A stretch of DNA of 64,000 nucleotides from a virus (lineage: Duplodnaviria; Heunggongvirae; Uroviricota; Caudoviricetes): positions 207,223 through 271,222 of IMG/VR virus record IMGVR_UViG_3300000976_000008; one strand, 5' to 3'. The translations under genes and the position numbers were made by a program. Within the stretch, counting starts at the first letter, position 1, and every line of letters starts with the position of its first letter. The notes beneath the pieces were generated by a model. It did no database searches. It saw only the letters and a program-made list of their open reading frames with translations, and was not told where the DNA came from. Below, piece after piece: positions 9,162 through 59,486 of this stretch.

Positions 9162-9358
9162 ACAAAATCCTCAGGATCTTTACCGCGACGACAAATCTGC
9201 CTGTCAGCTTCGTTCACGATCTTTATAGCTGTCTGGACTGAGGATCTAACCAATGCTACATTGCAGTTTCGACCATCACCAATCAAAGATGCAGCTATTA
9301 GTGAAACCATCTGCACTTTCGCAAGATGTTGTAATGGGTCGTGATCATCTCGCGACAT
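9158..9358 (-). CDS. Hypothetical protein
   Basis: Coupled ORF. Confidence 0.55.
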   Translation of the reverse strand: MSRDDHDPLQHLAKVQMVSLIAASLIGDGRNCNVALVRSSVQTAIKIVNEADRQICRRGKDPEDFV

Positions 9359-9809
9359 GTGGGTGGCCTTTTAGAAGATCATCGAGCATCGAAAGATGCA
9401 AAACGAGTTGTTTCATTTGTGGGAGTGCCCAATCTTGTGGTCGGATATAAGTCGTCTGTTGGACATTGCCAGTAACATCTAGGCGAGGTCTATCGGACAA
9501 TACGACTGTCATGTCAGTTTTCTCAAGCTCTGGAAGAATGCAAGCGGTCTTAGTGTCGCCACCACCCAGAGTCAAATCAATCGTATCCTCGATAGGATGA
9601 TTCGGTCCGAATGGTCGAGTCAACAGAATCGCTTCATCGTAGTAGAAAACTCTACCAACAGCATATCTGTCGAAAAGTCCTAGAAGAAGCTCACCACGAT
9701 TACCTCGTTCATAAAGACGACGACAAGATCCGCTAAAATCAACACAAAGAATCACGTCTTCATCTCCAAAATGAGAAACCCCGGCCCAGCACAACCTTCC
9801 ACCCAACAT
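9345..9809 (-). CDS. Degenerate vWA-like protein
   Basis: ILCVDFSGS (DxSxS), GGGDT and VVLSD resemble the vWA half of 56156..57589. Confidence 0.55.
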   Translation of the reverse strand: MLGGRLCWAGVSHFGDEDVILCVDFSGSCRRLYERGNRGELLLGLFDRYAVGRVFYYDEAILLTRPFGPNHPIEDTIDLTLGGGDTKTACILPELEKTDMTVVLSDRPRLDVTGNVQQTTYIRPQDWALPQMKQLVLHLSMLDDLLKGHPHVAR

Positions 9810-41351: not shown

Positions 41352-41779
41352 GGTTTTTGACCGTTATAGAACATTGAGACAGCATATTGAATCTGCTCAA
41401 ATAGTTCTGGGTTGACATAATCAACTTCGTACGTCCAACCACTAGCAGAAATGGTAACTTTCTCTTTACCAAATGAAACAGTAGCGGTAGCGGATTTCCT
41501 ACCACGATAAGATTGATCGTCTCGGAAGTTAGAATCCTTATTGATGGCCAAATAATCCCCGTTGCGTCTGATACTCATCGTATTCAGCATCATTTGTGAC
41601 AGGTTTTCATTGAGCCAACCGACTATCGCATCGACGAAGCCAGGAGGGGCTGTGCCAGTAAGAAAAGATCCATAGTCAAAATCTGCATATGACTTCCTAG
41701 CGAATGGTCTAACACTTCTTCCAGATCTCTGGTGCATTCTAGTGTAGTCGAGACGTCTCTTTCCGTGATATTGTGTCAT
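41348..41779 (-). CDS. Paralogue family B protein
   Basis: YEVDYVNPELFEQI. Confidence 0.65.
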   Translation of the reverse strand: MTQYHGKRRLDYTRMHQRSGRSVRPFARKSYADFDYGSFLTGTAPPGFVDAIVGWLNENLSQMMLNTMSIRRNGDYLAINKDSNFRDDQSYRGRKSATATVSFGKEKVTISASGWTYEVDYVNPELFEQIQYAVSMFYNGQKP

Positions 41780-43893
41780 GCTTCCACCAGTGCGGGGAGT
41801 TCCGCTTGTCCGTCCAAAACCTTCTTTAAAAAGTCCAAAGAAATGATCTGGGTGAAGCCGTTCGCGTCAGCATTTTTGGCTTTCGTAGTCATCTGCAGCG
41901 GATCTTTTTGAATTAGAAAGTGTACTGATTTCTTCGACTTCGGAACACTGCTGGCGAAAACTCCACCACGTTCTTCAACATCCGCCATGAACGCTCTTGT
42001 GCCAGTGATGCAGAAAATAAGCCCACTAAAGGGCTTGTCAGCGTCGTCGCCATCCTCAGAAACTATGGGATATGAGATTGTCACTCCGTTACTCATCAGT
42101 TTGTTGATGAGTAGTGACATTTCCTTCATCCCATTGATCACAGCTTCGCGAATTGCATCCCCGAAGCCTTCCATCTTGATTTCTCCCAGTTTCTTGAAAT
42201 CCAACCAGTCGGCTAGGGTATCAAGTTCACCATTGGCGTTCTCGCGGAGGATAATGACCCTTCGGCGACCGAGAAGATCGATTCCGAGTGACCCCAAGAA
42301 TACTTCGAGAGGGAGATGTTTCTTGCCTTGGATATTAGCCACGATTTTGTTGGCTCGTGACTCACCAATTCTCCCGCCGCCTTCGAGTTCCAAGTCTTTG
42401 AGATCATCTGGTTTCAACGTGTAGAGATCAGCAGCATCGCCAATTACTTCGTTGTCCCACATTGCTTTCAGAATGCCATCACCGATGTTGAGGATGCCAA
42501 CGCCTTTCTTTGACGATCCGATCCACTTGTCGATTTTTCCGAGCTTACAATCTGGGCAATTTTGAGGGTCAGTACAGTAGACTACAGCACCTTCTTTGCC
42601 TCTGTAGATCCGCGTTGTAGGTTTACTACAGCTTGGACACGTTTTCGGTTCTTCAATCGGCGTTCTGTTGGTTCCCTTGTTGACGACTCGGATGATCTTG
42701 GGAATGATATCGCCAGCCAAAATCACTTCGACTTCATCTCCAAGTTGCACACCGAGACGCCCAATTTCATCCCAATTGTTCAGAAGACAATTGGAGACAT
42801 TCACCCCACCAATTCGAACTTCTTGCAACCTAGCTGTTGGGATAATTCCTCCCGTGTGGCCAACTGAAATCGCAACACTTTCAAGGATTGTTGTATTAGA
42901 CTTGTGAGGAAATTTGATCGCCCTGGCGTACTTTGGTCGCAGTTTCGTTTTGACGTCATCAGTGATAAACTCTGATTGCAGTTCGAGATCATCGAGGACC
43001 ACTACTAGTCCATCAATCTCAAAGGGTAGATCATCACGACCCGCAACAGTGCTGTCGTAGAATGATTTCAATTGTTCAACTGTGTCGCACATAATATGCG
43101 GAACAGGAAGGAAGCCCATGCTCTTCAGGAACTTCATCTTCTGCTCTTCAGTGTTTGCGAACGTCGGACCGATGACGTCAACATTGAAGGATATGAATGT
43201 CATCTTTTCTGAGTCGACACCATCATCGCGACTAAAAACGCCGTTTCCAACGTTTCGTGGATTGCTTTGACTTTCTTTGGGGATCTTATCAAAGGGCATG
43301 CCAGCATCGCGAGATCGAACGGCCTTGTACTCTTCGATGTACATGACGGCTTCCCCGCGAACATCCATTGTTAATGGTTCGTTCAATTCGAGGGGGAGAT
43401 TTTTGAAGTTAATTCCGTTGACAGTGATATCTTGACCAACGGCACCGTTGCCGCGAGTAGCGACTCGGACCAATTTCCCCTCTTTGTAGGTCGCACAGAT
43501 GCTCCCGCCGTCAACTTTGAGAGAAGCGAAGACACGAGTTGTGGGAGTGGCTACCTGGCTCAACCATGGAGCGTAGCCTGCGATACCGTCATCCGTGTTG
43601 TCGAGAGAACCCATGGGGATTCTATGTTCGACCTTGTTTCGGAGATCTGCGAGATCAAACGGAATTCCTACACGATCTATACGTTCATCGTTTGGAGCGA
43701 GATTCTTCAGTGCTGGACGAAGAAGGTCATATTCAGCATCTGTCAGAATCGGTTCTGAACCAGATCGATAGTAAGCCATGTCGGCTTTGTCGATTAGTTG
43801 GCGAAGTTCATCGATCTTCAGGCGAATTACTGCGTTACCAAATCCATCGTCGTCTTTTCGGAGGGATCGGATTGTTGTGCTGACGTTTGACAT
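41776..43893 (-). CDS. ligA: NAD-dependent DNA ligase
   Basis: YY..D.EYD, H..PMGSLDN, KVDG, TRGNG..G.DIT, RGE, NPRN, IDGLVV, AIKF, AGDIIPKI, C4 zinc finger, HhH repeats, BRCT (FCITG). Confidence 0.96.
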   Translation of the reverse strand: MSNVSTTIRSLRKDDDGFGNAVIRLKIDELRQLIDKADMAYYRSGSEPILTDAEYDLLRPALKNLAPNDERIDRVGIPFDLADLRNKVEHRIPMGSLDNTDDGIAGYAPWLSQVATPTTRVFASLKVDGGSICATYKEGKLVRVATRGNGAVGQDITVNGINFKNLPLELNEPLTMDVRGEAVMYIEEYKAVRSRDAGMPFDKIPKESQSNPRNVGNGVFSRDDGVDSEKMTFISFNVDVIGPTFANTEEQKMKFLKSMGFLPVPHIMCDTVEQLKSFYDSTVAGRDDLPFEIDGLVVVLDDLELQSEFITDDVKTKLRPKYARAIKFPHKSNTTILESVAISVGHTGGIIPTARLQEVRIGGVNVSNCLLNNWDEIGRLGVQLGDEVEVILAGDIIPKIIRVVNKGTNRTPIEEPKTCPSCSKPTTRIYRGKEGAVVYCTDPQNCPDCKLGKIDKWIGSSKKGVGILNIGDGILKAMWDNEVIGDAADLYTLKPDDLKDLELEGGGRIGESRANKIVANIQGKKHLPLEVFLGSLGIDLLGRRRVIILRENANGELDTLADWLDFKKLGEIKMEGFGDAIREAVINGMKEMSLLINKLMSNGVTISYPIVSEDGDDADKPFSGLIFCITGTRAFMADVEERGGVFASSVPKSKKSVHFLIQKDPLQMTTKAKNADANGFTQIISLDFLKKVLDGQAELPALVEA

Positions 43894-47385: not shown

Positions 47386-48033
47386 TTACGTGTCACTTGG
47401 ACTATACTCCATCATTGTAGGAAGTATCGAAATCTGACTAACTAATTTGGGGGCATTCACACCCACAGCATCTAAGAATAGGCTGATTCTAGATTGCCCA
47501 AAGAAATCAACTAATCTGACTTGGTCGCTTATCTGAGTAAAAACTATGCCTCTAAGGTGGAATTCAGCCAAGTCTGTTGGCCACCGCATACCATATCGCA
47601 ATAGTATATCGATGACATCTTTATCGAATTTGTCTTTCCAAGCATGATCGAAATCTAATGCAAGATCTCGTACTGCCATGTCGAAACAATTTGGCTCAAT
47701 ATACGCATATCGCCTACGATCTATCAATCGAATTTTCGCACCTTCTTTAAGGTGTATCTTTTTCCCATCTTGAAATCTAGTGCTAAAAGCGTGAGGAGAT
47801 ATTAAGAATCCTTCTTCTTCAAAGTCCAAGATCCATAATCGACCATCTGGATCTTGCTGTTCTTGTTTATTCTCATAGAAATCATATTTGTGTTTGAGAA
47901 CCCAAATACTATGATTTCTAGTATTGCCCATAGCCATCTTGAATCGACCAGAATCGAACAATCCAGAAATTAGAGGATTATCTTCTAAAACCGAATTCAA
48001 AGCATCAATTGTGGCAACTTGAAATCTGTTCAT
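47386..48033 (-). CDS. Hypothetical protein, probable family B domain
   Basis: QVATIDALNSVL...YAYIEPNCF. Confidence 0.6.
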   Translation of the reverse strand: MNRFQVATIDALNSVLEDNPLISGLFDSGRFKMAMGNTRNHSIWVLKHKYDFYENKQEQQDPDGRLWILDFEEEGFLISPHAFSTRFQDGKKIHLKEGAKIRLIDRRRYAYIEPNCFDMAVRDLALDFDHAWKDKFDKDVIDILLRYGMRWPTDLAEFHLRGIVFTQISDQVRLVDFFGQSRISLFLDAVGVNAPKLVSQISILPTMMEYSPSDT

Positions 48034-49613
48034 GGAATAATCATCTTTCCCATGAACAAACGTGATGCAGTTAGACGATAACCCCTATCCATGAAAACAT
48101 CGTCAATAGTCGGATTGAATCGAGCATATCCCCGATGCAAGAGACGGTATTGTAAAAGGTCTCTCTCCATCTTCCAAAGCCAAGTGTCGTCATTTCTTCT
48201 TGAATCAGAAAGATAGGGCTTTACGAGCTTCTCTCCCAAATATTCGATCTGATTATAATCACCAAACCAAACCCCATTTAGCAAGATATGGCAATCAAGA
48301 CTGCTTCTCACATAGGATGGTGAATTATCAGTGTCAACAATACGAATTTCATCATCAACCATTTCTGTATGAAACTCTATTACTTGATCGCCAAATTTCT
48401 CGGACATAATCGGGCTTGATTTTACACCTGGTTTCAAGAAAACAGCGATATCAAGATCAGAATCGGGTTTGGAGTATCCTTTGAGTTTTGACCCAAAAGA
48501 GACAGCAACTGGATAAATGAGATTATGAAGATCTGGATCTGTGACAAGTTCTCGGATCTTTTTGTGATCAGATGCTTCAAAATTCTTGGAGAAATCACCG
48601 CTTAGATCTGGGTATCTTAATCCGAAAGACCCAAGAATCCTCTTGCTGATAAGTCCCAAACTGTGTGCGACAAATAATGCTCGCGATGATTCTTCTCTTG
48701 CTTCTGGAATGGAAGCAAGCCGAAACAAAGGAACTGCTGTCTTTTGAAAAGCTTGCAATACTGAGTAATTGGATTGACGACTAGTAAATTCCAAGTATTG
48801 TCGAATGCCTGAAGCATAGACTCTCGCAGCATTAGTAGTAGTATGCTTTGGTGTATAATCACCACGCAGCGGTTCTACAAGTTTGCTACCTAAAGACTCA
48901 ACTATCTTAGCATCGTTGTCTCGTCTCAACCATTTGAGCCTATTTTGAGACCCTGAATGGCGATGCTCTTTGAAAGCTCGCAAATTGAATTCTAACGCCG
49001 CCCACACATCCAAGTTATCATTTGGATATGAGCGGTTCCGTCTTCTTGGGTTTTTAAATGGTGGTGGATTCTTAGTAGTAATGTGTCTCCTACTATCTGC
49101 GACAACTCCATCATGATCTTGATAATAAGCTAATCGACTAGAGAACCCCTTATTCTTTAGAGTTTCCATCATCATTACCACTTGGCAGATCTTCTCAGGC
49201 ACACACTGTTCAGGAATATCACCATCAATAAAATCTGCTCTAAGGTCTCGATGGTCAAGAAGATTGAAATAAGCTTCGATAACAGCTTCACAAAATGCAA
49301 TCGTTTGGTCGCTACTATCGTGGTACTGTGTAGCATCTGGAATAAGATGCATCGGAAGATATAATAGTAGTCTATTATACCGAATAAGGAATGGTGTCAA
49401 TGCCTCATAAAGTTCATCCATAGCCTTCTTGAATTCCTTGTCTGATGAGAATTCAAGAGGATTTATGTGGAAGTTGACTTTATCAAAACGCCTGAGTAAT
49501 TCACGTCTTTCAGCGAATGTTTCATTATTCTCTTGCGTTTTAAGCATATCCCATATGCCGGTGGAGCCTCTAAAAAGAGACTCCACCGGAGATGCAACAC
49601 TGACGAAGGACAT
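48030..49613 (-). CDS. Pol-beta-superfamily nucleotidyltransferase with a long N-terminal helical region
   Basis: SFGSKLKGYSKPDSDLDIAVFL = hG[GS]x9-13DhD motif. Confidence 0.8.
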   Translation of the reverse strand: MSFVSVASPVESLFRGSTGIWDMLKTQENNETFAERRELLRRFDKVNFHINPLEFSSDKEFKKAMDELYEALTPFLIRYNRLLLYLPMHLIPDATQYHDSSDQTIAFCEAVIEAYFNLLDHRDLRADFIDGDIPEQCVPEKICQVVMMMETLKNKGFSSRLAYYQDHDGVVADSRRHITTKNPPPFKNPRRRNRSYPNDNLDVWAALEFNLRAFKEHRHSGSQNRLKWLRRDNDAKIVESLGSKLVEPLRGDYTPKHTTTNAARVYASGIRQYLEFTSRQSNYSVLQAFQKTAVPLFRLASIPEAREESSRALFVAHSLGLISKRILGSFGLRYPDLSGDFSKNFEASDHKKIRELVTDPDLHNLIYPVAVSFGSKLKGYSKPDSDLDIAVFLKPGVKSSPIMSEKFGDQVIEFHTEMVDDEIRIVDTDNSPSYVRSSLDCHILLNGVWFGDYNQIEYLGEKLVKPYLSDSRRNDDTWLWKMERDLLQYRLLHRGYARFNPTIDDVFMDRGYRLTASRLFMGKMIIP

Positions 49614-49616
49614 GGA

Positions 49617-51101
49617 CTAGTCGTCCACTTCTTCGTCGTAGTCTTCGCCGATCCCTTTGAGACGACGTCCGTGAAGTCGAGCGTTGACGTCTTTCTCAAT
49701 ATCTCTCAACTTCTTCGTTCCTTTCGTGCGTCTCACTTTCCCACCGGTAGGAAGATCACCCCATGGGATCTGGCGACCGAGTGCGAAGAGTGTTCCGAAG
49801 TACCGAAGCTCTTCTTCACCCCCTGGAATGTCGTTGGTGCTCATGATGGCCATCAGGAACCTGGTGAGATTCAATTCGAGTCTCTTGTAGGTAGCTGGGA
49901 CATCGAGCTTCAACTTCTTCAGAAGGAGGTCACGAGTTGTGACACCACAGAGCGTCGGAATCCGAGGATTCTGCAGTACCTTCTGGATCGTGTTGGCCTC
50001 GAAAGCGAGAGCCGATGCGACCTGGACTCCTGTCCCACGAAACAGCTTATTGAGCTTATCGTTGACAGATTCAGCCGCATCGCGGAGAATCCCGCAATCT
50101 GGTGGCTGCATCATACCAGGAGGCATCATTCCTCCACCACCAGCACCACCGAGAATCATCGCCATCATTCCGGCAGGATTCCCAGCACCAGCCATCCACG
50201 TCTCCTGCCAACCAGTCAATGCATCGTTGAAGGTCTTGATAGCTGGCCAGAGAGTCTCGCGGATTCGTGAGAGTAGTTCATTGCGACGAGCGTTGGTGAT
50301 GAAAGAACCATCGAGTCCATCAATCGCTTCAAACAAGTCACCGTAGGATCGTCGTTTGAGTTGCTTTCGCAACGCGAAGAATTCTTTGGAAGCGAGTTCT
50401 TCCGTGACCTCAATGTGTGCTTCCATCGCCGCGACAATCGTCTCAGGAACGTCGTACAAACCGACGCTATCAGCTAATGCAGCCTTGACCGCAGTGACAA
50501 CGATTGAATGCCCGATCTGAGGGTTCAGAACTCCACCAGTGCGAAGAGAATCCAACCAAGAACTGTCATCCGGAACATTTGGGAGCAAACTCCCAAAGTC
50601 TAACGCCGCTGTTGCATTGGTCGCCGCTGTCGCTGCAGTTGCCGTAACTGCATCTGCACGTTCAGAAGCACCATTGAGATCTTTGACGATACGTCTCGCT
50701 TTGAGAACCGGAATTTCCATCCCGGTCAGATCAGATTCAGTCAGTGAACTGAGATCTGCAACAGTCTCAGCACCGAGAGCCTTAATCTTCTCAATCTTAT
50801 CCGCACCAAGACCAAGCCCTGTGAGCTTTTCTGTGATCTCGCACACCATAGTAGCCGTACCTCCTGACCCTTCTCCTGTAACGACAGCACCGCTCGCACC
50901 GTCTCCTGTAACGACGGCACCACTCGTGCTGCCAACCAAATCGATGATGTCTTCCCCACCACCGCCAGTTCCGAAGAAGTCTGGCAAGCCATCTTCACCA
51001 GTTGGAATCTTCGCTGCTTCGGTGGATGTGGGTTCTTCTGACTCAGGAGCCGACTCTACAACTTCGGGCTTCTCTTCGTCGTCTTTCTTCTCTTCAGCCA
51101 T
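49617..51101 (-). CDS. Hypothetical protein with an acidic disordered N-terminus and a SAM-like domain
   Basis: KLTGLGL....IEKIKALGAETVADLSSLTESDLTGMEIPVLKARRIV resembles a sterile alpha motif; GAGG RBS. Confidence 0.65.
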   Translation of the reverse strand: MAEEKKDDEEKPEVVESAPESEEPTSTEAAKIPTGEDGLPDFFGTGGGGEDIIDLVGSTSGAVVTGDGASGAVVTGEGSGGTATMVCEITEKLTGLGLGADKIEKIKALGAETVADLSSLTESDLTGMEIPVLKARRIVKDLNGASERADAVTATAATAATNATAALDFGSLLPNVPDDSSWLDSLRTGGVLNPQIGHSIVVTAVKAALADSVGLYDVPETIVAAMEAHIEVTEELASKEFFALRKQLKRRSYGDLFEAIDGLDGSFITNARRNELLSRIRETLWPAIKTFNDALTGWQETWMAGAGNPAGMMAMILGGAGGGGMMPPGMMQPPDCGILRDAAESVNDKLNKLFRGTGVQVASALAFEANTIQKVLQNPRIPTLCGVTTRDLLLKKLKLDVPATYKRLELNLTRFLMAIMSTNDIPGGEEELRYFGTLFALGRQIPWGDLPTGGKVRRTKGTKKLRDIEKDVNARLHGRRLKGIGEDYDEEVDD

Positions 51102-51103
51102 GG

Positions 51104-52519
51104 TTACCTCGCAAATTGAGTTTCTTGTTCGGTAGGCCCGAACGAAATTAAGTGGATTGGGATATCTAGACGACTAAGCATTTCCCGATTGCATAATCGC
51201 AACAATTCATCTGTCGAGGTATGTGCCATATCAATTGTTTTAAATTCTGGCACACATTTCTCTAAGAAAGAACCCAATTCTTGTTGGTACTTTCTTCTCC
51301 GAACATTCTCTGCTGGATCAATTGAAAGCAATTTTCCATCAGATATGAAACGGTGTGATTTTTCAAGCTGTGAAGGCTCGTTAAATTTGTATTTTTCGCA
51401 AATTTCCCATTTGCCAGTCTCATGAATATCGTCGCACCAAGTTAGAGCAATCCCATCAATATCAACTCCACAATTCTCTACTGCATAACGGAGTAGCATA
51501 AAATCTAAAGGGCCGACTCTCACCTTACCCTGATAGCGATTCTCATTCTTATGACTGCCAGGTGCTAACTTCTCCGTCATATCTTCACAATGAGTAGGCA
51601 TTGGGCCAGCACCATGACGAACACTATATGCCCTATGTACCCCAATGTTGACAATTTCACCATTATAATCAAATTGGCGAAGATAATCGGTTACAAATGT
51701 AGGCAATGTACGAATAGCACTCACATGGGGATGAAATCCAAGTGCATTATCTGTCAAAATGCCGTGTGAACTCTCAATTACAACATCGCCATCTTGGGCA
51801 AGAATCTGGCGAATATGATCGCCTTCTACCACGTTTAATTTCTCACCAACTTCTCTGAATCGTTCAATGTTGTGCTTCAAAAAACCCGGATCGTAAAGCA
51901 GGTTCAATTCGATTTGAATCAACTCCCGATCTTCATCAGTAATATCAACGACAAGTTCTTGGCCCAATTTAGAGGTTTTGGCAATGTAGTAGTCCCGAAG
52001 TCTACTCAATTTATTGCTGAGATTATGGAACTTCGAACCATCTCTCAAATCAGAGGCTCTAATTGTCAGATCTGGTTGAACATTTCGAATTCTATGAGCA
52101 ACACCAACTCCAGTCCCAACAGTGCCTCTAGGAGTAGTCCTAGTTAATTCTGTAATCCTTGAGAATATGCCATGGTAGGGGGTGGCACATAATGCTGATT
52201 CATCTACAGTCAACAAATCGAAAGCATTAGTGATACCTATATATCTCAAGCAATCAGCTTCTTTTAACATCCCTGTGGGACTAATTATCATCAGGGGTGT
52301 TATGTGTGTTTTGATTCCCTCAAGTGTTCCGCAACCCCATTGGCTGAAGCAGAACTTTGTTCGCTTATTCTGTGCACCGTGTTGACCCTGTGCACCACCG
52401 ATTTTTACAACGGTGTGGGGATGATGGCGGCAACAGAGTGCATGTATAGCACCCCCTTTGCCGCCATCGCCTGGCCCCAAATCGAAAATTGAAAAGACTC
52501 GATCAGTCATCAGATCCAA
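51104..52519 (-). CDS. Divergent adenylosuccinate synthetase (PurA)-like enzyme
   Basis: DLGPGDGGKG, GGAQGQH, FSQWGCGT, GTVGTGVG, ESSHG, RHGAGP, RVGPLD, TWCD, SFGP. Confidence 0.88.
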   Translation of the reverse strand: MDLMTDRVFSIFDLGPGDGGKGGAIHALCCRHHPHTVVKIGGAQGQHGAQNKRTKFCFSQWGCGTLEGIKTHITPLMIISPTGMLKEADCLRYIGITNAFDLLTVDESALCATPYHGIFSRITELTRTTPRGTVGTGVGVAHRIRNVQPDLTIRASDLRDGSKFHNLSNKLSRLRDYYIAKTSKLGQELVVDITDEDRELIQIELNLLYDPGFLKHNIERFREVGEKLNVVEGDHIRQILAQDGDVVIESSHGILTDNALGFHPHVSAIRTLPTFVTDYLRQFDYNGEIVNIGVHRAYSVRHGAGPMPTHCEDMTEKLAPGSHKNENRYQGKVRVGPLDFMLLRYAVENCGVDIDGIALTWCDDIHETGKWEICEKYKFNEPSQLEKSHRFISDGKLLSIDPAENVRRRKYQQELGSFLEKCVPEFKTIDMAHTSTDELLRLCNREMLSRLDIPIHLISFGPTEQETQFAR

Positions 52520-53670
52520 GTATCTCGCTCTTCGTCGTCATCCTCATCTTCGCCATCTTCTTCAGCTTCTTCGACGCTTGAACTTGAGATTGGCCAAATG
52601 TTGGTATCTTCCCAAACATCTGGTTTCTCTGCGAAGAAATCGCCCTTCATCGGTCGCCGATCAAAGTTCGGCAACTGAGCCTGTGCACCAAGAGGAATAT
52701 CGACCAGAGCCTCCATGATGGTTTCGGCTGCTGCTTCGTCAACATTCATCCTTGTCAGGAATGTTACCACTTCTTGCGGTTCGATGACTCCTTCAGTCAG
52801 ACCAATTATTGCGGCCTGAGTCTGAGGAATCCATTTGGCGTGAGGAATCGGCACGACACGTTCTTTGCCGCAGTGTTCATTCCAGAAACGTTTCGCAGAA
52901 CTACTGTTCCTAACGACAATGATGAAAGCATGTGCTTCTTCGAGAAGATCGTTCCAGATCGTCTCAAGTTCCATGCTGCCACCATTGTGCTTGATTTGGT
53001 GGCCGTTTTCACTGACTTTGGTGAAAACTTCATCGCCGAAGGTCCGTTTCAAAGTCTTGTCATCAACTCGCCCACGGCCAGGTGCATCCGTGACTGTGAA
53101 GTCATAACGCTTGAGGCCGATTCGATTAATGTAAGATCTAACCAAGTACGCACCACCGAAGATCCCCACATCAGGATCTTCAGCAGGATCTCCGCCGCCT
53201 CGCTCTGGTACCATCTGTGTGAGTTGGTTGACAATCTTATCAGCAACCATTTCAAATGGTGGTCTGCAAAGAACGAAATCATCGACGACGTCACCGAAGA
53301 TTCCTGTGGAAGCTTGGATATCGTAGTCTTCGAGAACTTCTTTCCAGTATTCGAAGGCATTTGGAAGCACTTCCAAGGCAGTATCGACACTGTCACCCAT
53401 ACTGCTCGTCGAATCGAAGCGTGTTTCGATTGGAATAGGAGTACCAACCAGCAACTTCCAGCCACCATCTTCCTTACCAACTCGTGGAAGTGATAGCCGA
53501 GTTACTCCGAATTCTGCAGGGTCAACGATAGGCTGCAGCTTACCAGTCTTCTTGGCTTGCTGTTCAGCCTTTTTTGTTACCCCTTTCGATCCGCGAGTTA
53601 CACCAACGCTCGCCAAAGCGGCAGTGTATGTCTCTTTTGTTAAAAAACTGTCACCCATCCTAAACCTCAT
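52510..53670 (-). CDS. vWA-domain protein (start probably 53658)
   Basis: MIDAS-like FDSTSSMG, GGGDPAED, TVTDAP; acidic tail. Confidence 0.7.
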   Translation of the reverse strand: MRFRMGDSFLTKETYTAALASVGVTRGSKGVTKKAEQQAKKTGKLQPIVDPAEFGVTRLSLPRVGKEDGGWKLLVGTPIPIETRFDSTSSMGDSVDTALEVLPNAFEYWKEVLEDYDIQASTGIFGDVVDDFVLCRPPFEMVADKIVNQLTQMVPERGGGDPAEDPDVGIFGGAYLVRSYINRIGLKRYDFTVTDAPGRGRVDDKTLKRTFGDEVFTKVSENGHQIKHNGGSMELETIWNDLLEEAHAFIIVVRNSSSAKRFWNEHCGKERVVPIPHAKWIPQTQAAIIGLTEGVIEPQEVVTFLTRMNVDEAAAETIMEALVDIPLGAQAQLPNFDRRPMKGDFFAEKPDVWEDTNIWPISSSSVEEAEEDGEDEDDDEERDTWI

Positions 53671-54556
53671 GCGTCTTGAAAGGATAAAAACCTGGCTCCC
53701 AGACAGAGGCTGGGTTTGATTGCAAGGCTCTTACCGTTTGGTAGAAATTAGTATGTGCCCTCTGTGCGTCATCTTCTCTGCCTCTTGCCAAATAGCTTAT
53801 GTATTCAGTATAAGAGTTATCGTGCGGCGTTTCGTGGGCGAATGCCAGATTATGTCCATTATCTGCACCACCAACCACCTTAATAATACATCTGGCGGCT
53901 TTGCTTATATCCCCCTTCTTATTCTTAGAGGATAGATTAGTATGAACCTCGGCTTCGGACCAGTTGAACAACATGACGAAATGTTGATCGCGTTCGATCA
54001 AGACATTGTTGCCGAAAACGTTGTTAACTTGGATATTTTGCATGTGAGCGAAGTGAATCAGTTTCAGCAGCTTCCCAAAAATCCAAGCACTAGTTCTTAA
54101 ATCAACTCTAAGACCAGCTTTTGGGATCTTGATCAAAGGAACCATTGTAGAAACATCATCGACTGCTTTGAAAGCGATGACACTGACTTGTCGTCGATCG
54201 GACAACACAATGGTCTCTACGATTTCTGGGAACATGAAATCGTAATTGTATGGGACGTCGTGGTCACCGCTATCGATCTTATCAGAAAACATATGCATCT
54301 TGCGAAGAATAATTTCTTGCTTCGCAATTTCAGCGTTGTAGCTAGGATCGAGAGCCACTAACAGGAGAAGATTTCTTCCCGAACTATCTGTGCACTTCCG
54401 AATGCGATAGCTCTTTGTTTCAGCTACTACTTTCCCAATATTGTATTCATCAATGCGTCGCGATCGGCGATCCGCTTTGACAGATCCTTTTGATCCTTTT
54501 CGAGATCTTTTTTGCATTTCTTCAATTCTCGCCGTGTTTGGTTGATCTTTAGCCAT
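53660..54556 (-). CDS. Ser/Thr kinase-fold protein, probably a pseudokinase
   Basis: AWIFGKLLKLIHFAH..., NNVFGNNVLI, MLFNWS; catalytic-loop Asp and DFG Asp apparently replaced. Confidence 0.65.
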   Translation of the reverse strand: MAKDQPNTARIEEMQKRSRKGSKGSVKADRRSRRIDEYNIGKVVAETKSYRIRKCTDSSGRNLLLLVALDPSYNAEIAKQEIILRKMHMFSDKIDSGDHDVPYNYDFMFPEIVETIVLSDRRQVSVIAFKAVDDVSTMVPLIKIPKAGLRVDLRTSAWIFGKLLKLIHFAHMQNIQVNNVFGNNVLIERDQHFVMLFNWSEAEVHTNLSSKNKKGDISKAARCIIKVVGGADNGHNLAFAHETPHDNSYTEYISYLARGREDDAQRAHTNFYQTVRALQSNPASVWEPGFYPFKTHEV

Positions 54557-54954
54557 GTTCGTCTTTGCCGAATCTTGTTAGCTCTATCGGCGTTGAATGC
54601 TACCTTTTTTGCGAAATCTAGAACATTATTCGGGTAATCGGGATTGCATATATCGAATATGAATTGTTCTTCTGGACTTTTACCACCGAACACCATACTC
54701 TCAACAGTTCTCGCTCCCATTGTTACAGAACTGACATCGACTTTTAATTGACCGAAATAAACCCAAGCTCCACCAGATGCTCTTGCAATGAACATATTTT
54801 TAGTATGTTGAATAGTAGTAGGATTATTATTATTTCCGTATCCCTGAAATGGAGCAATACGCAAATAAAGGTCATCCCAAGAGGCTTCACTTTTTCTGAG
54901 AGCCATCGAATCGATATTCAAACTTCTGGCTATTTCGTCTCTTAAGTCGAGCAT
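54427..54954 (-). CDS. Paralogue family B protein
   Basis: FIFDICNPDYPNNV. Confidence 0.65.
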   Translation of the reverse strand: MLDLRDEIARSLNIDSMALRKSEASWDDLYLRIAPFQGYGNNNNPTTIQHTKNMFIARASGGAWVYFGQLKVDVSSVTMGARTVESMVFGGKSPEEQFIFDICNPDYPNNVLDFAKKVAFNADRANKIRQRRTWLKINQTRRELKKCKKDLEKDQKDLSKRIADRDALMNTILGK

Positions 54955-55829: not shown

Positions 55830-56192
55830 TTATCCCCGGTTTTTTATTTGTGCCCTCAAAGAGCAGGTGATGCAAGAGACCGAGTGGGCCGGTCCCATGC
55901 AAGAGTTACATTCGCTGCATTTCGCAAGATGGGGTCTGTTGCACTTTCCTTGGCAGATTCCGCATCTTCCTGTGTCTGTTTCATCAAAACCAAGCTTCTC
56001 TAAGAGAACTGCTTTGACGATTTCTGATGTTGTAGTGTGGTCGTAATCTTCGACAGACCCACCACGAACTTGGTGACTGCGGAATCTCACCGCTTCGGCG
56101 AGATCCCGCTTTGCCACTTCGTCAGCAATCTCTTGAATTGCTTCTTCGAGATTCATTACTGGTTGACCTTCATCCGCACTGTGTGACCCCAA
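55830..56192 (-). CDS. Hypothetical protein with a C-terminal Cys-rich zinc finger (start probably 56156)
   Basis: Three CxxC motifs; TAATG coupling to the upstream gene. Confidence 0.6.
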   Translation of the reverse strand: MGSHSADEGQPVMNLEEAIQEIADEVAKRDLAEAVRFRSHQVRGGSVEDYDHTTTSEIVKAVLLEKLGFDETDTGRCGICQGKCNRPHLAKCSECNSCMGPAHSVSCITCSLRAQIKNRG

Positions 56193-57589
56193 CCAGGACC
56201 ATCGGTCTGACCTTCAGGAGTCGTGATGACAGTAATCAGAGGGAACCCACATGGCTTATGCCATCCAGTGTAACCGTCTGTCAGCATCACCGTACAGTCT
56301 GGGACCTGCTTGTTTTCCATCAACCAGTCGATTGGACCGACCATGTCAGTTCCGCCACGTCCATTGACAGTCAACCGCTTCCAATCGCCGCGACGGTACT
56401 TTTCGAATCCTTGGAAGGCAGCATCCCATTGGAGGATGGTGATCTTGGCCTTACTACTCAAAGACTCAATCTCTGCGAAGAATTGCTCAAGCTCACGCTT
56501 ACCAATTGATCCGGAAGTGTCGATGATGACGCAAACTGTGGCTGCTGCATGATGAGAGACGCCAGCAATTCCAAAGTGACGTCGACGTCGGTTGCGACGG
56601 CTGTAAGTCTTGCGACTATTGCCGACATGCTTGCCAAGGTATTGTCGGATCAACTCACGCCATCGGATGATTGGCTTGCCAAGTTCGGCGATTGCTTCTT
56701 CTAGGTGTGAGGGGACATGGCCTTGACACTTTTCAGTAGCTTGATCGACGATATCCTTGACGAGTTGTCGTGCTTCGTCTTCGGAGACGTCGGACATGTT
56801 CCAAGTCGAATGGTCGTCGATGACCTTTCCGGAGACACCGCCAAATGAATAGGAGTCACCACCAGATTGGCCACATGCTCCACACTGGGATTCGTCACCA
56901 CCGCCGCCACTGCCATCCTGTTCTTCTTCACCTTGACCGCTACCACTGCCGCCACTGCTGCCCTGGCCGTCATCATCCTCTTCTTCCCCTTTGCCCTTTC
57001 CGCCTTTTCCTTTGCCTTTCATGGGTCGTCCGCACTGTCCGCAGCACTTACCACCCTGCGACTTTTCGAGCTTGTCGTAGTACCATTCCGTGGTTTGGTC
57101 GTGTGGCCAATCCTCAGGAATCCAGATGATATTCCCCTTCAGAGGGACTACCATTTCACTGGATTGTGGTTCGTGGTACCCGATTCGTGGGTTTTGCTTG
57201 GTACCGTTGACGCACATATCGGCGGCAATATTCCAAGCTTCTGGGTTTCGGTGACTGTTGCGAATGCAGTGGCAGCGAACAATGTGTTCGATTTCGTGCT
57301 GGATGACCGCGAACAATTCTTTGAGATTCAGTTTGTCAACGAATGGGGGGTAGTAAATACATTGCACGTCGTGTCCGTTGACGATTCGAACGCCCATTGT
57401 TCGCTGTTGTTCTGGCAACCAAGGCATATTGGATGGAACCCAAGTCATACCCATGGCGACGTGCCCGTACCATGGTTCTCGTGTCATCAGACGACACCGG
57501 GCATTCATCAAACGCTCCGATTGTTCGGCTGTGACCTTTGCTCTGGATGATTTGCGTGCAACCATGTTCGTCGTCTTTGTACCTACCAC
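56156..57589 (-). CDS. DUF2201-type metallopeptidase plus vWA domain protein
   Basis: HEIEH, WNIAADMCVN, DDHSTW, IIDTSGSI, GRGGTD, MLTDG. Confidence 0.88.
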   Translation of the reverse strand: MVGTKTTNMVARKSSRAKVTAEQSERLMNARCRLMTREPWYGHVAMGMTWVPSNMPWLPEQQRTMGVRIVNGHDVQCIYYPPFVDKLNLKELFAVIQHEIEHIVRCHCIRNSHRNPEAWNIAADMCVNGTKQNPRIGYHEPQSSEMVVPLKGNIIWIPEDWPHDQTTEWYYDKLEKSQGGKCCGQCGRPMKGKGKGGKGKGEEEDDDGQGSSGGSGSGQGEEEQDGSGGGGDESQCGACGQSGGDSYSFGGVSGKVIDDHSTWNMSDVSEDEARQLVKDIVDQATEKCQGHVPSHLEEAIAELGKPIIRWRELIRQYLGKHVGNSRKTYSRRNRRRRHFGIAGVSHHAAATVCVIIDTSGSIGKRELEQFFAEIESLSSKAKITILQWDAAFQGFEKYRRGDWKRLTVNGRGGTDMVGPIDWLMENKQVPDCTVMLTDGYTGWHKPCGFPLITVITTPEGQTDGPGWGHTVRMKVNQ

Positions 57590-58130: not shown

Positions 58131-59486
58131 TTATTCGTCGCTTGACGTTCCCCAAGAGACTCGGGAAAGTGCGTCTTGCAGTTCAGGTCGTTCAGTCAGA
58201 CGATCGATGAACGTCTTCTTGGTGTTACCGGACCGCTTGTTGAACTTCGAGATCATCTTGGCGAGTCGAGGATTCGAGATCACCGCTGCTCGTGCCTTCT
58301 CCTGTTGATCTCCAGGGTTATCACCGCTGACCAAGGCTCGGCAGAATGCGACAACCACATCCTTATCGTTGGCGTGGTCCACCATGAAACTGGCGAAGTC
58401 GAGGCAGACTTCTGCTGTCTTATCGTCTTCGGTCTTGTTCTTGGCGAAACTGACCAGACCCCACATGAGACCAGTCAACTGGTTTCGGTTCAGCTTCTTC
58501 AGCTTCCCTTCGAAAGGCTTGACACCACGGTTGATCAACTCACGAGGCTTGACCGGGCAAGAATGTCGTGAGTAAGATCGGGCAAGCTCTCGACCGACCA
58601 GACCACCGATAACCTCTTCTTTCGCCAGGTCTGAAAAACCCTTGTTGGCAGCAGTCGCGGCTTCCACCTTCGTCACGGATTCCCATGATCGCCGGGAAGG
58701 TTGGACCGAGAATCCGAGTTCACCAGCAATGTCGCCATCAAGGTGCTTCACATTCTGTGAGGCGAATTCGATGACTCCTGCAGCGTCTCCACCGTGCTTG
58801 TCGGCCATGAAGTTGACCCACTCTTCGAGAGTCGTTTCGCCACCGGAAAGTGTCAGGTGGACGAATCGGTCGAGGAATGCCGCATCGTTGAAGCCGGAAA
58901 CTTGGTAGCCTTCCATGTAGTTACCGGCAGCAACAACTTGCCAGCCTGGTGGCAAGACGTACTGACCAACTCGTCGGTCGAGAACCAACTGGAAGATCGC
59001 CTGCAGAACATCGTCCTGGGCACGGTTCACTTCGTCGATGAAGAGGATACCGTTCTGGAATCGCGGCTGGATTTTCTGCAGCTTCTCGTAGTACAACCGT
59101 TCGGTTTCGAGATCTGCCTTCTCCAGAGCCTTTGCGATGGCGACTGGTGCATCCTTGACCTTCTTCGCATCGATGTCGAGAAGTTCGCAGAGTTCCGCTG
59201 TCACGTCTTCGGTCGTCATGTCACCAACTGGCATGTCGGCTGGCGGCAAGTAGTGAGTGCGATAATCGTCTTCGATGCCGAGATTGACACCGGTCTCAGG
59301 GAGACCTCGAACATCGGATGCTTCCAACTGAGAACATCGTAGGTCCAAGAAACCCATGCCGTTTTCGGCGGCGAGTTGTTGGACGAGACTTGACTTACCA
59401 AGCCCTCGGTGGCCCCAAATGAACGGTGTGATTCCCGCAAGACCACAAATCTGAACTGCTTCTTTGAGGATCGAAATCTTCGCCAT
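58131..59486 (-). CDS. MoxR-like AAA+ ATPase
   Basis: Walker A GHRGLGKS, D.RG.P, Walker B LFIDEVNRA, AAGN, AFLDRF, PSRRSW. Confidence 0.9.
   Translation of the reverse strand: MAKISILKEAVQICGLAGITPFIWGHRGLGKSSLVQQLAAENGMGFLDLRCSQLEASDVRGLPETGVNLGIEDDYRTHYLPPADMPVGDMTTEDVTAELCELLDIDAKKVKDAPVAIAKALEKADLETERLYYEKLQKIQPRFQNGILFIDEVNRAQDDVLQAIFQLVLDRRVGQYVLPPGWQVVAAGNYMEGYQVSGFNDAAFLDRFVHLTLSGGETTLEEWVNFMADKHGGDAAGVIEFASQNVKHLDGDIAGELGFSVQPSRRSWESVTKVEAATAANKGFSDLAKEEVIGGLVGRELARSYSRHSCPVKPRELINRGVKPFEGKLKKLNRNQLTGLMWGLVSFAKNKTEDDKTAEVCLDFASFMVDHANDKDVVVAFCRALVSGDNPGDQQEKARAAVISNPRLAKMISKFNKRSGNTKKTFIDRLTERPELQDALSRVSWGTSSDE

What the first reader, a model, noticed from the sequence alone, without database searches (positions are those of the whole stretch)
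48030..54556. Five-gene module built around a non-PurZ, non-canonical PurA-like enzyme: pseudokinase, vWA, PurA-like, SAM-like protein, nucleotidyltransferase
Seen: five large genes that overlap or sit 2-3 nt apart, among tiny hypothetical ORFs (53660..54556 kinase fold, 52510..53670 vWA, 51104..52519 PurA fold, 49617..51101 SAM-like, 48030..49613 Pol-beta NTase). No PurB, DatZ or MazZ partner is recognisable in the window. Known: PurA phosphorylates O6 of IMP with GTP and displaces it with an amine; PurZ does the same on dGMP for Z-DNA; kinase+vWA pairings occur in stress and conflict loci such as TerY-P. Inference: this is not housekeeping AMP synthesis but a self-contained nucleotide-modification or tagging system. 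One model is that the NTase attaches or makes a purine nucleotide and the PurA-like enzyme couples it to an unusual amine (small molecule or protein), with vWA, pseudokinase and SAM protein as scaffold or sensor. It could act in counter-defence, inter-phage conflict or signalling. I recall similar uncharacterised kinase/vWA/PurA-like triads in bacteria but cannot verify that here. This is the best candidate for an undescribed system in the window.
Basis: partly seen in the sequence, partly recalled or inferred. Interest (0 to 1): 0.88.

Follow-up and report, generated by a model that had tools for sequence, protein, structure and literature searches.

The report
Phage pseudokinase-vWA-PurA-like five-gene module
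A 408-kb phage carries a complete copy of a five-gene set for which I found no published description; it is built around a rewired relative of the purine enzyme PurA that is predicted to bind a vWA partner, it otherwise occurs in ultra-small (CPR) bacteria under NAD-salvage control, and its chemistry is unknown.

Summary
Five tightly coupled minus-strand genes lie at 48030-54556: pseudokinase K, vWA-like V, PurA-like P, SAM/HhH protein S and Pol-beta nucleotidyltransferase N.

All five recur in the same order in about 80 genome loci, almost all Patescibacteria, and in three other phage-like contigs. The flanking genes are not shared, so K-V-P-S-N is one unit.

P keeps the PurA catalytic Asp, Lys and His and the guanine-specifying Asp. 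It has lost the aspartate loop and changed the IMP contacts. It coexists with a canonical PurA in two of five host-type genomes. The whole phage has no PurB, MazG or HD match, so P is neither PurA nor PurZ.

A complex prediction supports P binding V (score 0.84, best control 0.00).

In CPR relatives the module shares a palindromic operator with nrtR, pncA and nadE. The phage copy lacks that operator. The K-V-P core also occurs in about 200 Bixzunavirus mycobacteriophages.

My best reading is a heteromeric GTP-dependent nucleotide ligase tied to NAD/ADP-ribose economy. The product is unknown.

This scan has already met the same module on other DNA, in at least nine notes. New here are the complete five-gene phage copy and the P-V prediction. 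I found no paper describing it.

The parts
53660..54556 (-). K: protein-kinase-like protein without the catalytic residues (pseudokinase); 298 aa as the listed ORF, of which roughly the first 40 aa are a basic extension absent from relatives
   Evidence: It matches phrog_3043 'kinase' at 6.5e-7. BLASTP to Bixzunavirus gp260 'serine/threonine kinase' gives 3e-9. Three of 26 family members hit Pkinase, best 7.6e-4. Alignment A5 shows no conserved VAIK Lys or HRD Asp, and the DFG Asp is variable. Homologues precede V in about 80 loci.
52510..53658 (-). V: vWA-like protein with a DxTxS MIDAS-type motif (D86, T88, S90); predicted binding partner of P. The listed ORF starts at 53670; the likely start is 53658.
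   Evidence: Invariant residues appear in alignment A3. The Atlas's own model has TM 0.68 to a cluster named putative VWA, and named vWA clusters score 0.83 by features; both are leads only. hhalign to Bixzunavirus gp261 gives 95% probability over the MIDAS region. The complex prediction with P scores 0.84 against a best control of 0.00. Pfam VWA matches are weak: 1 of 28 members at 0.038.
51104..52510 (-). P: diverged adenylosuccinate-synthetase-fold enzyme. It keeps the equivalents of E. coli D13, K16, H41 and D333. It has changed N38 to Q, T129 to V/I, Q224 to H, V273 to H, K331 to W, and rebuilt the aspartate loop (T300 to Y, T301 to Q, R303 deleted, R305 to V).
   Evidence: PF00709 at 1.4e-33. 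NCBIfam purA equivalogs score 80 bits or less against cut-offs of 368-700. The residue map comes from the alignment to 1ade and the family invariants in A1. On the tree the clade is separate from canonical PurA with SH-aLRT 100.
49617..51101 (-). S: an N-terminal low-confidence stretch (1-85), a SAM/(HhH)2-like domain (about 84-156) and a conserved all-helical core (about 170-450) with no recognised fold
   Evidence: AlphaFold2 model: mean pLDDT 72, core 85-95. VIA-align gives SAM, NusA-AR and Hef HhH hits at Z 6-8 over residues 84-156 only. Foldseek PDB and the Atlas gave nothing for the core. The family has 236 clusters, all unnamed, with PF22931 SAM_TNK as the only Pfam match.
48030..49613 (-). 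N: a large helical N-terminal and middle region followed by a minimal (MNT-type) Pol-beta nucleotidyltransferase domain at about 330-490, with G374, S375, D386 and D388 invariant
   Evidence: Polbeta 1.4e-4 and NTP_transf_2 4e-3, both below the curated cut-offs. MntA at 5.8e-6. Motif conservation in A4. Model pLDDT 81, pTM 0.82. The middle region gives HEAT-like hits at Z under 7 only. Atlas rows are NTP_transf_2/Polbeta.

Best explanation
The five genes encode one functional unit whose catalytic heart is a heteromeric, GTP-dependent PurA-type ligase.

Shown here:
- The genes are translationally coupled and inherited together.
- P keeps the residues that in PurA abstract the proton, bind the GTP phosphates and guanine, and stabilise the phosphorylated intermediate.
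- P has lost the aspartate pocket and changed the IMP base and phosphate contacts.
- P is predicted to bind the conserved N-terminal segment of V.
- N has an intact nucleotidyl-transfer motif.
- K lacks kinase catalytic residues.

Inferred:
- P, held in a complex with V (and probably K as a second non-catalytic subunit), uses GTP to phosphorylate an oxygen on a nucleotide-type substrate that is not IMP.
- The phosphate is then displaced by a nitrogen nucleophile that is not aspartate.
- N nucleotidylates the precursor or the product.
- S is an accessory SAM/HhH adaptor that some lineages do without.
- In Patescibacteria the module shares an operator with nrtR, pncA, nadE and ADP-ribosylglycohydrolase genes, so the substrate or product most likely belongs to NAD/ADP-ribose economy.
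- In the phage the module has shed that operator. It would act as an auxiliary metabolic module that keeps such a nucleotide pool available during infection.
For: Unit:
- Junctions of -1 to +3 nt.
- All five families in the same order in the loci.
- The window's flanking genes have no homologues in those loci.

Enzyme:
- PF00709 fold.
- D18, K21, H47 and D363 invariant; Q44, H252, H302 and the rebuilt loop also invariant.
- Far below the purA equivalog cut-offs.
- A canonical PurA (379-408 bits) coexists with P (105-120 bits) in 2 of 5 host-type genomes, and ADSL_C is found in only 1 of 5.

Complex:
- ipSAE 0.84 (median of three runs), best of 3 controls 0.00.
- That mark was reached by 58 of 80 solved complexes and 2 of 110 mismatched pairs. 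These counts hold only roughly because my own alignments were used.
- The runs agree in at least 69% of contacts and the partner's pLDDT is at least 79.
- The interface is P 53-55, 89-101, 207-216 with V 15-16, 54-66, 138, 145.

NAD link:
- The commonest neighbours are NrtR (16 loci), NadE (7), PncA (7), NAPRTase (6) and ADP-ribosylglycohydrolase (6).
- The palindrome AGTGT-N7-ACACT occurs at 0.69 per kb upstream of K against 0.04 per kb elsewhere.
- The same site precedes pncA (10), nrtR (6), nadE (4) and ARG (3).
- Phage-clade member L002 has NUDIX and NAMPT flanking the module.

Phage use:
- The K-V-P core is present in Bixzunavirus gp260-261-263 and other viral contigs.
Against: - No substrate, product or activity is known, so the chemistry is analogy only.
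- The NAD link comes from bacterial relatives. The phage copy has no such operator.
- The phage genome has no homologue of NrtR, NadE, PncA, NAPRTase, ARG, NAMPT or PRPP synthetase by tblastn. Its only NUDIX lies about 80 kb away.
- Neighbours of the distant viral triads that I sampled carry no NAD genes.
- The module is sporadic: 1 of 300 sampled Patescibacteria besides the reference. It sometimes lies next to an integrase. Both features would equally fit a mobile conflict system.
- The P-V interface is a prediction, and it does not involve the MIDAS site or the active site.
- The roles of K, S and N are guesses.
Confidence: 0.42

Rival explanations
1. It is a conflict system, acting as defence in bacteria and counter-defence or inter-phage weapon in phages. 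In this reading P and N make a modified nucleotide that serves as signal, decoy or chain terminator. V and K would be the sensor or scaffold, as in vWA-kinase conflict triads.
For: The distribution in the phylum is sporadic: 1 of 300 genomes sampled. One locus lies next to an integrase. The module is present in several unrelated large phage lineages. The N core resembles MntA-type NTases of toxin-antitoxin systems and gives weak PDC-S09 hits. The window holds a second vWA-type pair (AAA plus DUF2201) nearby.
Against: No PADLOC system matched. No recognisable effector (nuclease, NADase, pore former) is present in or next to the module. In bacteria the module is co-regulated with NAD-salvage genes rather than placed in defence islands. 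K is catalytically dead. Order and sequence are conserved at 45-58% identity across classes, which looks more like an enzyme complex than a fast-evolving immune system.
Confidence: 0.22
2. It is a nucleic-acid end-modification or repair module. N would add nucleotides to an RNA or DNA 3' end, S would hold the nucleic acid through its HhH/SAM domain, and P would aminate or otherwise convert a 6-oxopurine on the polymer or on the added nucleotide.
For: S has an (HhH)2/SAM-like domain resembling NusA-AR, Hef and DisA HhH domains, at Z 6-8. N is a Pol-beta NTase with a large helical arm. In Bixzunavirus the triad lies three genes downstream of a polynucleotide kinase. An NAD-dependent DNA ligase lies 4 kb downstream in the window.
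Against: S is absent from several lineages that keep K-V-P-N, and S and N are absent from the distant phage triads. SAM-type folds are as often protein-protein modules. No ligase, phosphatase or nuclease is conserved with the module. PurA-family enzymes are known only on free mononucleotides (established knowledge).
Confidence: 0.13
3. It is a protein-tagging system. P or N would attach a nucleotide to a protein amine or hydroxyl, for example on V, K or a host target, with V's MIDAS site presenting the target.
For: P has lost the small-molecule amine (aspartate) pocket. It is predicted to bind a protein partner. vWA domains bind acidic peptide ligands (established knowledge). MntA-like NTases AMPylate proteins (the family name appears; the activity is established knowledge).
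Against: The predicted P-V interface lies away from the P active-site motifs and from the V MIDAS residues (one search compared). No PurA-family enzyme is known to modify proteins. Nothing here points to a target.
Confidence: 0.08
4. It is an ordinary adenylosuccinate synthetase (AMP synthesis), or a PurZ-type enzyme for 2-aminoadenine DNA, that merely lies beside unrelated genes.
For: The PF00709 match stands, and source pipelines name relatives 'adenylosuccinate synthase'. The PHROG annotation reads '2-aminooxy adenylosuccinate synthetase'.
Against: The aspartate loop and IMP contacts are not conserved. The score is 80 bits against equivalog cut-offs of 368-700. A canonical PurA is present alongside P in 2 of 5 genomes. 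The whole phage has no Lyase_1, MazG or HD match. The guanine-specifying Asp is retained, whereas PurZ is reported to use (d)ATP (my recollection, not checked here). The four neighbours are strictly conserved with P.
Confidence: 0.04

Closest known systems
Adenylosuccinate synthetase PurA (EC 6.3.4.4; PF00709, TIGR00184; E. coli structures such as 1ade)
   Same: The fold is the same. The P-loop GDxGKG with the catalytic Asp and Lys, the catalytic His of the GG..G.H motif, the guanine-specifying Asp and the SxGP motif are all kept. The likely chemistry is the same type: GTP-driven phosphorylation of an oxygen followed by displacement by a nitrogen nucleophile.
   Different: The aspartate loop is rebuilt: T300 to Y, T301 to Q, R303 deleted, R305 to V. 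The IMP contacts are changed: N38 to Q, T129 to V/I, Q224 to H. The score is far below the equivalog cut-offs. P forms a separate clade. It coexists with a real PurA. It is always next to V and K and is predicted to bind V. The phage has no PurB.
PurZ / PurZ0 of 2-aminoadenine (Z-genome) phages
   Same: It is a phage-borne paralogue of PurA with altered substrate specificity.
   Different: No DatZ-type HD, MazZ-type MazG or PurB partner exists anywhere in the genome. The guanine-specifying Asp is kept. The partners are a pseudokinase, a vWA protein, a SAM/HhH protein and an NTase instead.
TerY-P-type triads (vWA protein + Ser/Thr kinase + PP2C phosphatase), known from comparative genomics
   Same: A kinase-fold gene and a vWA gene lie side by side in an accessory, mobile locus.
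   Different: The kinase here lacks its catalytic residues. No PP2C was found among the neighbours scanned. The third member is a PurA-fold enzyme.
Phage NAD reconstitution pathways NARP1, NARP2 and NARP3 (PMC13464706 for NARP3 and a summary of NARP1/2)
   Same: These are phage-carried small gene sets tied to NAD/ADP-ribose economy. Bacterial relatives of this module are co-regulated with NAD salvage.
   Different: None of the NARP enzyme families was found in the module or the phage: PRPP-synthetase-like Adps and NAMPT-like Namat/NAMPT by tblastn, and NadR-like and PnuC by Pfam on the module proteins. That this module rebuilds NAD is a hypothesis only.
MntA-type minimal nucleotidyltransferases (type VII toxin-antitoxin antitoxins)
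   Same: The N core carries the G-S...D-x-D Pol-beta motif, and its best curated HMM match is MntA at 5.8e-6.
   Different: The score of 26 bits is below the 60-bit cut-off. N is 4-6 times larger, with a conserved helical N-terminal half. No HepT/HEPN partner is present.

Membership tests
Adenylosuccinate synthetase PurA (EC 6.3.4.4) | PF00709 fold with catalytic Asp13, Lys16 and His41 (E. coli numbering) | tested here: met
   PF00709 at 1.4e-33. D18, K21 and H47 align to D13, K16 and H41 and are invariant in 27 family members.
Adenylosuccinate synthetase PurA (EC 6.3.4.4) | Aspartate-binding loop G-x-T-T-G-R-x-R-R and IMP contacts N38, T129, Q224 | tested here: not met
   The loop reads N-R-Y-Q-G-K-V-R-V with R303 deleted. 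N38 is Q, T129 is V/I and Q224 is H, and all are fixed in the family.
Adenylosuccinate synthetase PurA (EC 6.3.4.4) | Scores above the curated equivalog cut-off (TIGR00184, NF002223 and others) | tested here: not met
   Best score is 80 bits against a cut-off of 445. TIGR00184 scores 65.5 against 395.55.
Adenylosuccinate synthetase PurA (EC 6.3.4.4) | It is the cell's only PurA and works with adenylosuccinate lyase PurB | tested here: not met
   A canonical PurA is present as well in 2 of 5 module-bearing genomes. ADSL_C is found in 1 of 5. The phage has no Lyase_1 match. Incomplete genomes limit the negative results.
PurZ (2-aminoadenine pathway) | Accompanied by DatZ (HD dATPase), MazZ (MazG) and/or PurB in the phage genome | tested here: not met
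   No PF01966, PF03819 or PF00206 match in the 408-kb record.
PurZ (2-aminoadenine pathway) | Groups with known PurZ sequences on a PurA/PurZ tree | not tested
The tree holds canonical PurA and PurA-like proteins only.
TerY-P vWA-kinase-PP2C triad | Active Ser/Thr kinase (VAIK Lys, HRD Asp, DFG Asp) | tested here: not met
   None of the three is conserved in 26 K sequences.
TerY-P vWA-kinase-PP2C triad | PP2C phosphatase gene in the locus | tested here: not met
   No PP2C family appeared among the window neighbours or the frequent neighbours in relatives.
von Willebrand factor A (vWA) domain | MIDAS motif D-x-S-x-S after a hydrophobic beta-strand | tested here: met
   D86, T88 and S90 are invariant as D-T-T-G-S, a D-x-T-x-S variant. 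The motif lines up with the D-T-S-G-S of the DUF2201 VWA-like domain.
von Willebrand factor A (vWA) domain | Significant match to a vWA profile or a solved vWA structure | tested here: inconclusive
   Pfam VWA_4 matched in 1 of 28 members at 0.038. The PDB profile search gave nothing. The Atlas gave leads only: TM 0.68 to a cluster named putative VWA and a feature score of 0.83.
Pol-beta superfamily nucleotidyltransferase (MNT type) | hG[GS] ... D-x-[DE] catalytic motif | tested here: met
   G374, S375, D386 and D388 are invariant in 27 sequences.
Pol-beta superfamily nucleotidyltransferase (MNT type) | Score above the Pfam or NCBIfam cut-off | tested here: not met
   Polbeta 22.4 bits against 26.9; NTP_transf_2 17.9 against 21; MntA 26.1 against 60.
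NrtR regulon (NAD metabolism) | The shared palindromic operator that precedes nrtR and NAD-salvage genes also lies upstream of the module | tested here: not met
   For the phage copy there is no site upstream of K and only 4 sites in 408 kb. For the bacterial relatives the feature is met: 23 of 81 loci have a site, 0.69 per kb against 0.04 per kb elsewhere, and the same site precedes pncA, nrtR, nadE and ARG. That NrtR binds this palindrome is inferred, not shown.
NARP1/2/3 NAD reconstitution pathways | Adps/Namat, NAMPT plus NMNAT, or PnuC plus NadR-like enzymes | tested here: not met
   tblastn found no NAMPT, NAPRTase or PRPP-synthetase homologue in the phage genome. The module proteins match none of these families.

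The most novel reading that the evidence does not exclude
P bound to V is a new kind of nucleotide ligase that uses GTP to activate an oxygen on an ADP-ribose- or pyridine-nucleotide-type substrate and joins it to a nitrogen nucleophile other than aspartate. One example would be re-forming NAD+ or an NAD-like dinucleotide in one step from breakdown products, with N supplying the adenylyl transfer. CPR bacteria would use this route under NrtR control. Large phages would carry it to keep that pool up during infection, which would make it a fourth, mechanistically unrelated NAD-type reconstitution pathway.
Probability: 0.12. Interest if true: 0.92.

Novelty: new variant of a known kind. Interest (0 to 1): 0.76.

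Why it matters
PurA-fold enzymes are known for only two reactions, those of PurA and PurZ, and the second one rewrote what we know about phage DNA chemistry. Here a third, deeply separated branch keeps the catalytic machinery but has a new pocket and an apparently obligate vWA partner. It is fixed in a five-gene unit that moves between ultra-small bacteria and very large phages. Its core is present in about 200 cultivable mycobacteriophages, so it can be tested at the bench now. If the NAD/ADP-ribose link holds, it would add a new step to nucleotide or NAD salvage in organisms that lack most biosynthesis. It could also add a new phage strategy against nucleotide depletion. If the link does not hold, the module is still a widespread enzyme complex with unknown chemistry.

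Tried and rejected
- **Phage DNA similarity.** Megablast of the module against 50,697 phage records gave no match.
- **Single-sequence scan of viral contigs** found nothing. The alignment-based scan was needed.
- **PADLOC** gave no system, only weak NTase-core hits.
- **PDB profile searches** with the S and V alignments gave nothing below E = 0.2.
- **Fold searches for the S helical core.** Foldseek PDB and the Atlas shape search gave no credible match. VIA-align explained only the SAM/HhH domain.
- **Fold searches for full-length N.** Foldseek PDB gave nothing. VIA-align gave only HEAT-like rows at Z under 7. These blanks do not show that the folds are new.
- **N as the missing NaMN adenylyltransferase.** I considered and dropped this, because CTP_transf_like genes are present in 4 of 5 module-bearing genomes.
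- **Housekeeping PurA and PurZ readings** were rejected (see rivals).
- **Sigma-70 promoter and terminator scan.** Counts did not exceed the shuffles, so no operon boundary could be set from it.
- **Direct repeats near the module** showed no promoter-like family.
- **Sequencing runs.** There was one DNA holder, an algae metagenome that may be the source sample, and no RNA holder was listed.
- **Literature.** Six full-text searches found no description of the module. The NAD-ADPr survey PMC9503650 mentions neither PurA nor adenylosuccinate.
- **Neighbours of distant viral triads** that I sampled carried no NAD genes.
- **hhalign of V against the window's DUF2201 VWA-like domain** aligned only the MIDAS strand, at 1% probability.

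Full report
**What is there.** The window is part of a 408,349-bp IMG/VR virus record rated complete. On the minus strand, 48030-54556 holds five ORFs of 298, 386, 471, 494 and 527 codons. I read the junctions directly. The K stop is followed after one base by the likely V start at 53658. The V stop and the P ATG at 52510 overlap by one base. P and S are 2 nt apart, and S and N are 3 nt apart. N ends in an ATGA overlap with the next small gene. K also carries a roughly 40-residue basic N-terminal extension that relatives lack.

**The parts.**
- **P** matches Pfam Adenylsucc_synt at 1.4e-33 and phrog_1211. It scores only 80 bits or less against purA equivalog models, whose cut-offs are 368-700 bits.
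  - Aligned to E. coli PurA and judged against 27 family members, the equivalents of D13, K16 and H41 and of the guanine-specifying D333 are invariant.
  - In contrast, N38 is Q, T129 is V/I, Q224 is H, V273 is H and K331 is W.
  - The aspartate loop is rebuilt: T300 is Y, T301 is Q, R303 is deleted and R305 is V. These replacements are themselves fixed across the family.
- **K** hits a PHROG 'kinase' family and the Bixzunavirus 'serine/threonine kinase'. The VAIK Lys, HRD Asp and DFG Asp are not conserved, so it is a pseudokinase.
- **V** has an invariant D-T-T-G-S MIDAS-type motif and only weak vWA leads otherwise.
- **S** has a SAM/(HhH)2-like domain at residues 84-156 (Z 6-8). Its well-modelled helical core matched nothing. 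Its family of 236 clusters is entirely unnamed.
- **N** has an invariant G-S...D-x-D Pol-beta motif. It gave sub-threshold Polbeta and MntA matches and Atlas rows of NTP_transf_2/Polbeta. Its large helical N-terminal half is unexplained.

**It is one unit.** Homologues of P at 45-54% identity are numerous. Every long contig I opened had the same neighbours, and BLASTP confirmed homology for all five genes. An alignment-based scan of one genome per GTDB species returned 80 loci, nearly all Patescibacteria. Profile searches found K, V, P, S and N in the same order in almost all loci that were long enough.
- In bacteria N is convergent. In the window, L002 and L004 it is co-directional.
- A few lineages have K-V-P-N without S.
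- The genes flanking the module in the window have no homologues in any other locus, which sets the unit's borders.

**Where it occurs.** The module is sporadic. A V profile hit 1 of 300 sampled genomes of the phylum besides the reference.
- On a tree rooted with two canonical CPR PurA sequences, the five-gene-type P proteins form one clade (SH-aLRT 100).
- The window groups with three phage-like contigs (SH-aLRT 100), nested among Patescibacteria.
- Distant viral PurA-like proteins, including Bixzunavirus, branch below that clade. Long branches make the deep order unsure.
- Those distant viral loci also carry K- and V-like genes.
- 201 mycobacteriophage records hold the PurA-like gene. In FoxtrotP1 it follows a kinase gene and a 594-aa protein whose N-terminal part matches the V profile at 95% hhalign probability.

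**What it is not.**
- Two of five module-bearing genomes also have a canonical PurA (379 and 408 bits against 105-120 bits for P). Only one of the five shows ADSL_C.
- The phage has no Lyase_1, MazG or HD match anywhere.
- With the lost aspartate pocket, this excludes housekeeping AMP synthesis and a PurZ-type Z-base pathway as likely readings.
- PADLOC recognises no defence system.

**Link to NAD.** Clustering all other neighbours in the loci showed which families recur most often: NrtR-type Nudix regulators (16 loci), glutamine-dependent NAD synthetase (7), nicotinamidase-type isochorismatase (7), NAPRTase (6) and ADP-ribosylglycohydrolase (6).
- A palindrome, AGTGT-N7-ACACT, lies upstream of K in 23 of 81 loci (at most 1 mismatch). 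Its density there is 0.69 per kb against 0.04 per kb elsewhere in those loci.
- The same site precedes pncA (10 sites), nrtR (6), nadE (4) and ARG (3). That this is the NrtR operator is my inference from its GT-N7-AC core and its position before nrtR.
- The phage copy has no such site.
- By tblastn the phage has no homologue of these NAD genes. It has one distant NUDIX and an NAD-dependent DNA ligase 4 kb downstream of the module.
- One phage-clade relative (L002) has NUDIX and NAMPT flanking the module.

**A predicted complex.** P and V were folded together with their alignments.
- The score was 0.84 (median of three runs) and the best of 3 controls was 0.00.
- That mark was reached by 58 of 80 solved complexes and 2 of 110 mismatched pairs. 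The counts hold only roughly because my own alignments were used.
- The runs agree in at least 69% of contacts and the partner's pLDDT is at least 79.
- The interface joins P residues 53-55, 89-101 and 207-216 to V residues 15-16, 54-66, 138 and 145. It lies away from the P catalytic motifs and the V MIDAS residues.
- I know of no solved PurA-vWA complex (own knowledge), so a pass from memory seems unlikely. This supports binding; it does not show it.

**Best explanation and rivals.** I read the module as a heteromeric PurA-type ligase. P, bound to V and probably K, would use GTP to activate an oxygen on a nucleotide other than IMP and couple it to a nitrogen nucleophile other than aspartate. 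N would perform a nucleotidyl transfer on the precursor or product, and S would be a dispensable adaptor. From the bacterial regulon, the substrate is probably part of NAD/ADP-ribose economy. In the phage the module would be an auxiliary metabolic unit freed from host control. I hold this at 0.42. The rivals are:
- a conflict system making a modified nucleotide (0.22);
- a nucleic-acid end-modification module (0.13);
- protein tagging (0.08);
- ordinary PurA or PurZ (0.04).

**Novelty and earlier notes.** Six full-text searches found no description of the module. The survey of viral NAD-ADPr systems does not mention PurA. This scan has met the module before on other DNA, in at least nine follow-up notes. 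They reached the same general reading: an undescribed module, linked to NAD and NrtR, with its core in large phages. I had reached those points independently before looking, and I re-tested the operator and the mycobacteriophage link afterwards. This window adds three things: a complete five-gene copy in a very large phage, its place in a small phage clade nested among Patescibacteria, and the P-V complex prediction.

Noticed in passing
window 56156-57589 (-) and 58131-59486 (-): A DUF2201 protein (putative metallopeptidase plus VWA-like domain; PHROG labels it 'HNH endonuclease') lies next to an AAA/MoxR-like ATPase, 1.6 kb upstream of the module. This is a second vWA-type pair in the same gene run.
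   Followed up: partly
window 41776-43893 (-): An NAD-dependent DNA ligase (adenylation and OB domains) lies 4 kb downstream of the module. It is an NAD consumer in a phage that has no recognisable NAD-salvage genes.
   Followed up: partly
window 51104-52510 (-), family alignment A1: The P family has invariant Cys and His residues that canonical PurA lacks (C63, C111, H26, H116, H252, H265, H302). This suggests a metal site or new substrate contacts.
   Followed up: no
window 50869-50926: Two tandem 28-nt copies with 30-nt spacing sit inside the low-confidence N-terminal extension of S, a stretch that bacterial S proteins lack.
   Followed up: no
L094:4802-5953 and L002:12345-12671: J-domain links appear twice. 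In a distant viral triad the kinase-like gene upstream of V carries a DnaJ domain (1.7e-5) plus a weak Pkinase match. In phage-clade contig L002 a small DnaJ protein directly follows N.
   Followed up: no
L035, L060, L063, L071 (about 9300-9600 in locus coordinates): In these loci N follows P directly and no S gene is present. In L008 S is short and diverged. S is therefore dispensable in some lineages.
   Followed up: partly
window 54427-54954 (-) against 53660-54556 (-): The upstream 175-codon ORF overlaps the listed start of K by 130 nt. No ATG, GTG or TTG lies where relatives of K begin, so either K really has the basic extension or the upstream ORF is shorter than listed.
   Followed up: partly
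genome G000:C1:339923-340273 (+), outside the window: This is the only NUDIX domain gene in the phage (66.9 bits), about 80 kb from the module.
   Followed up: no
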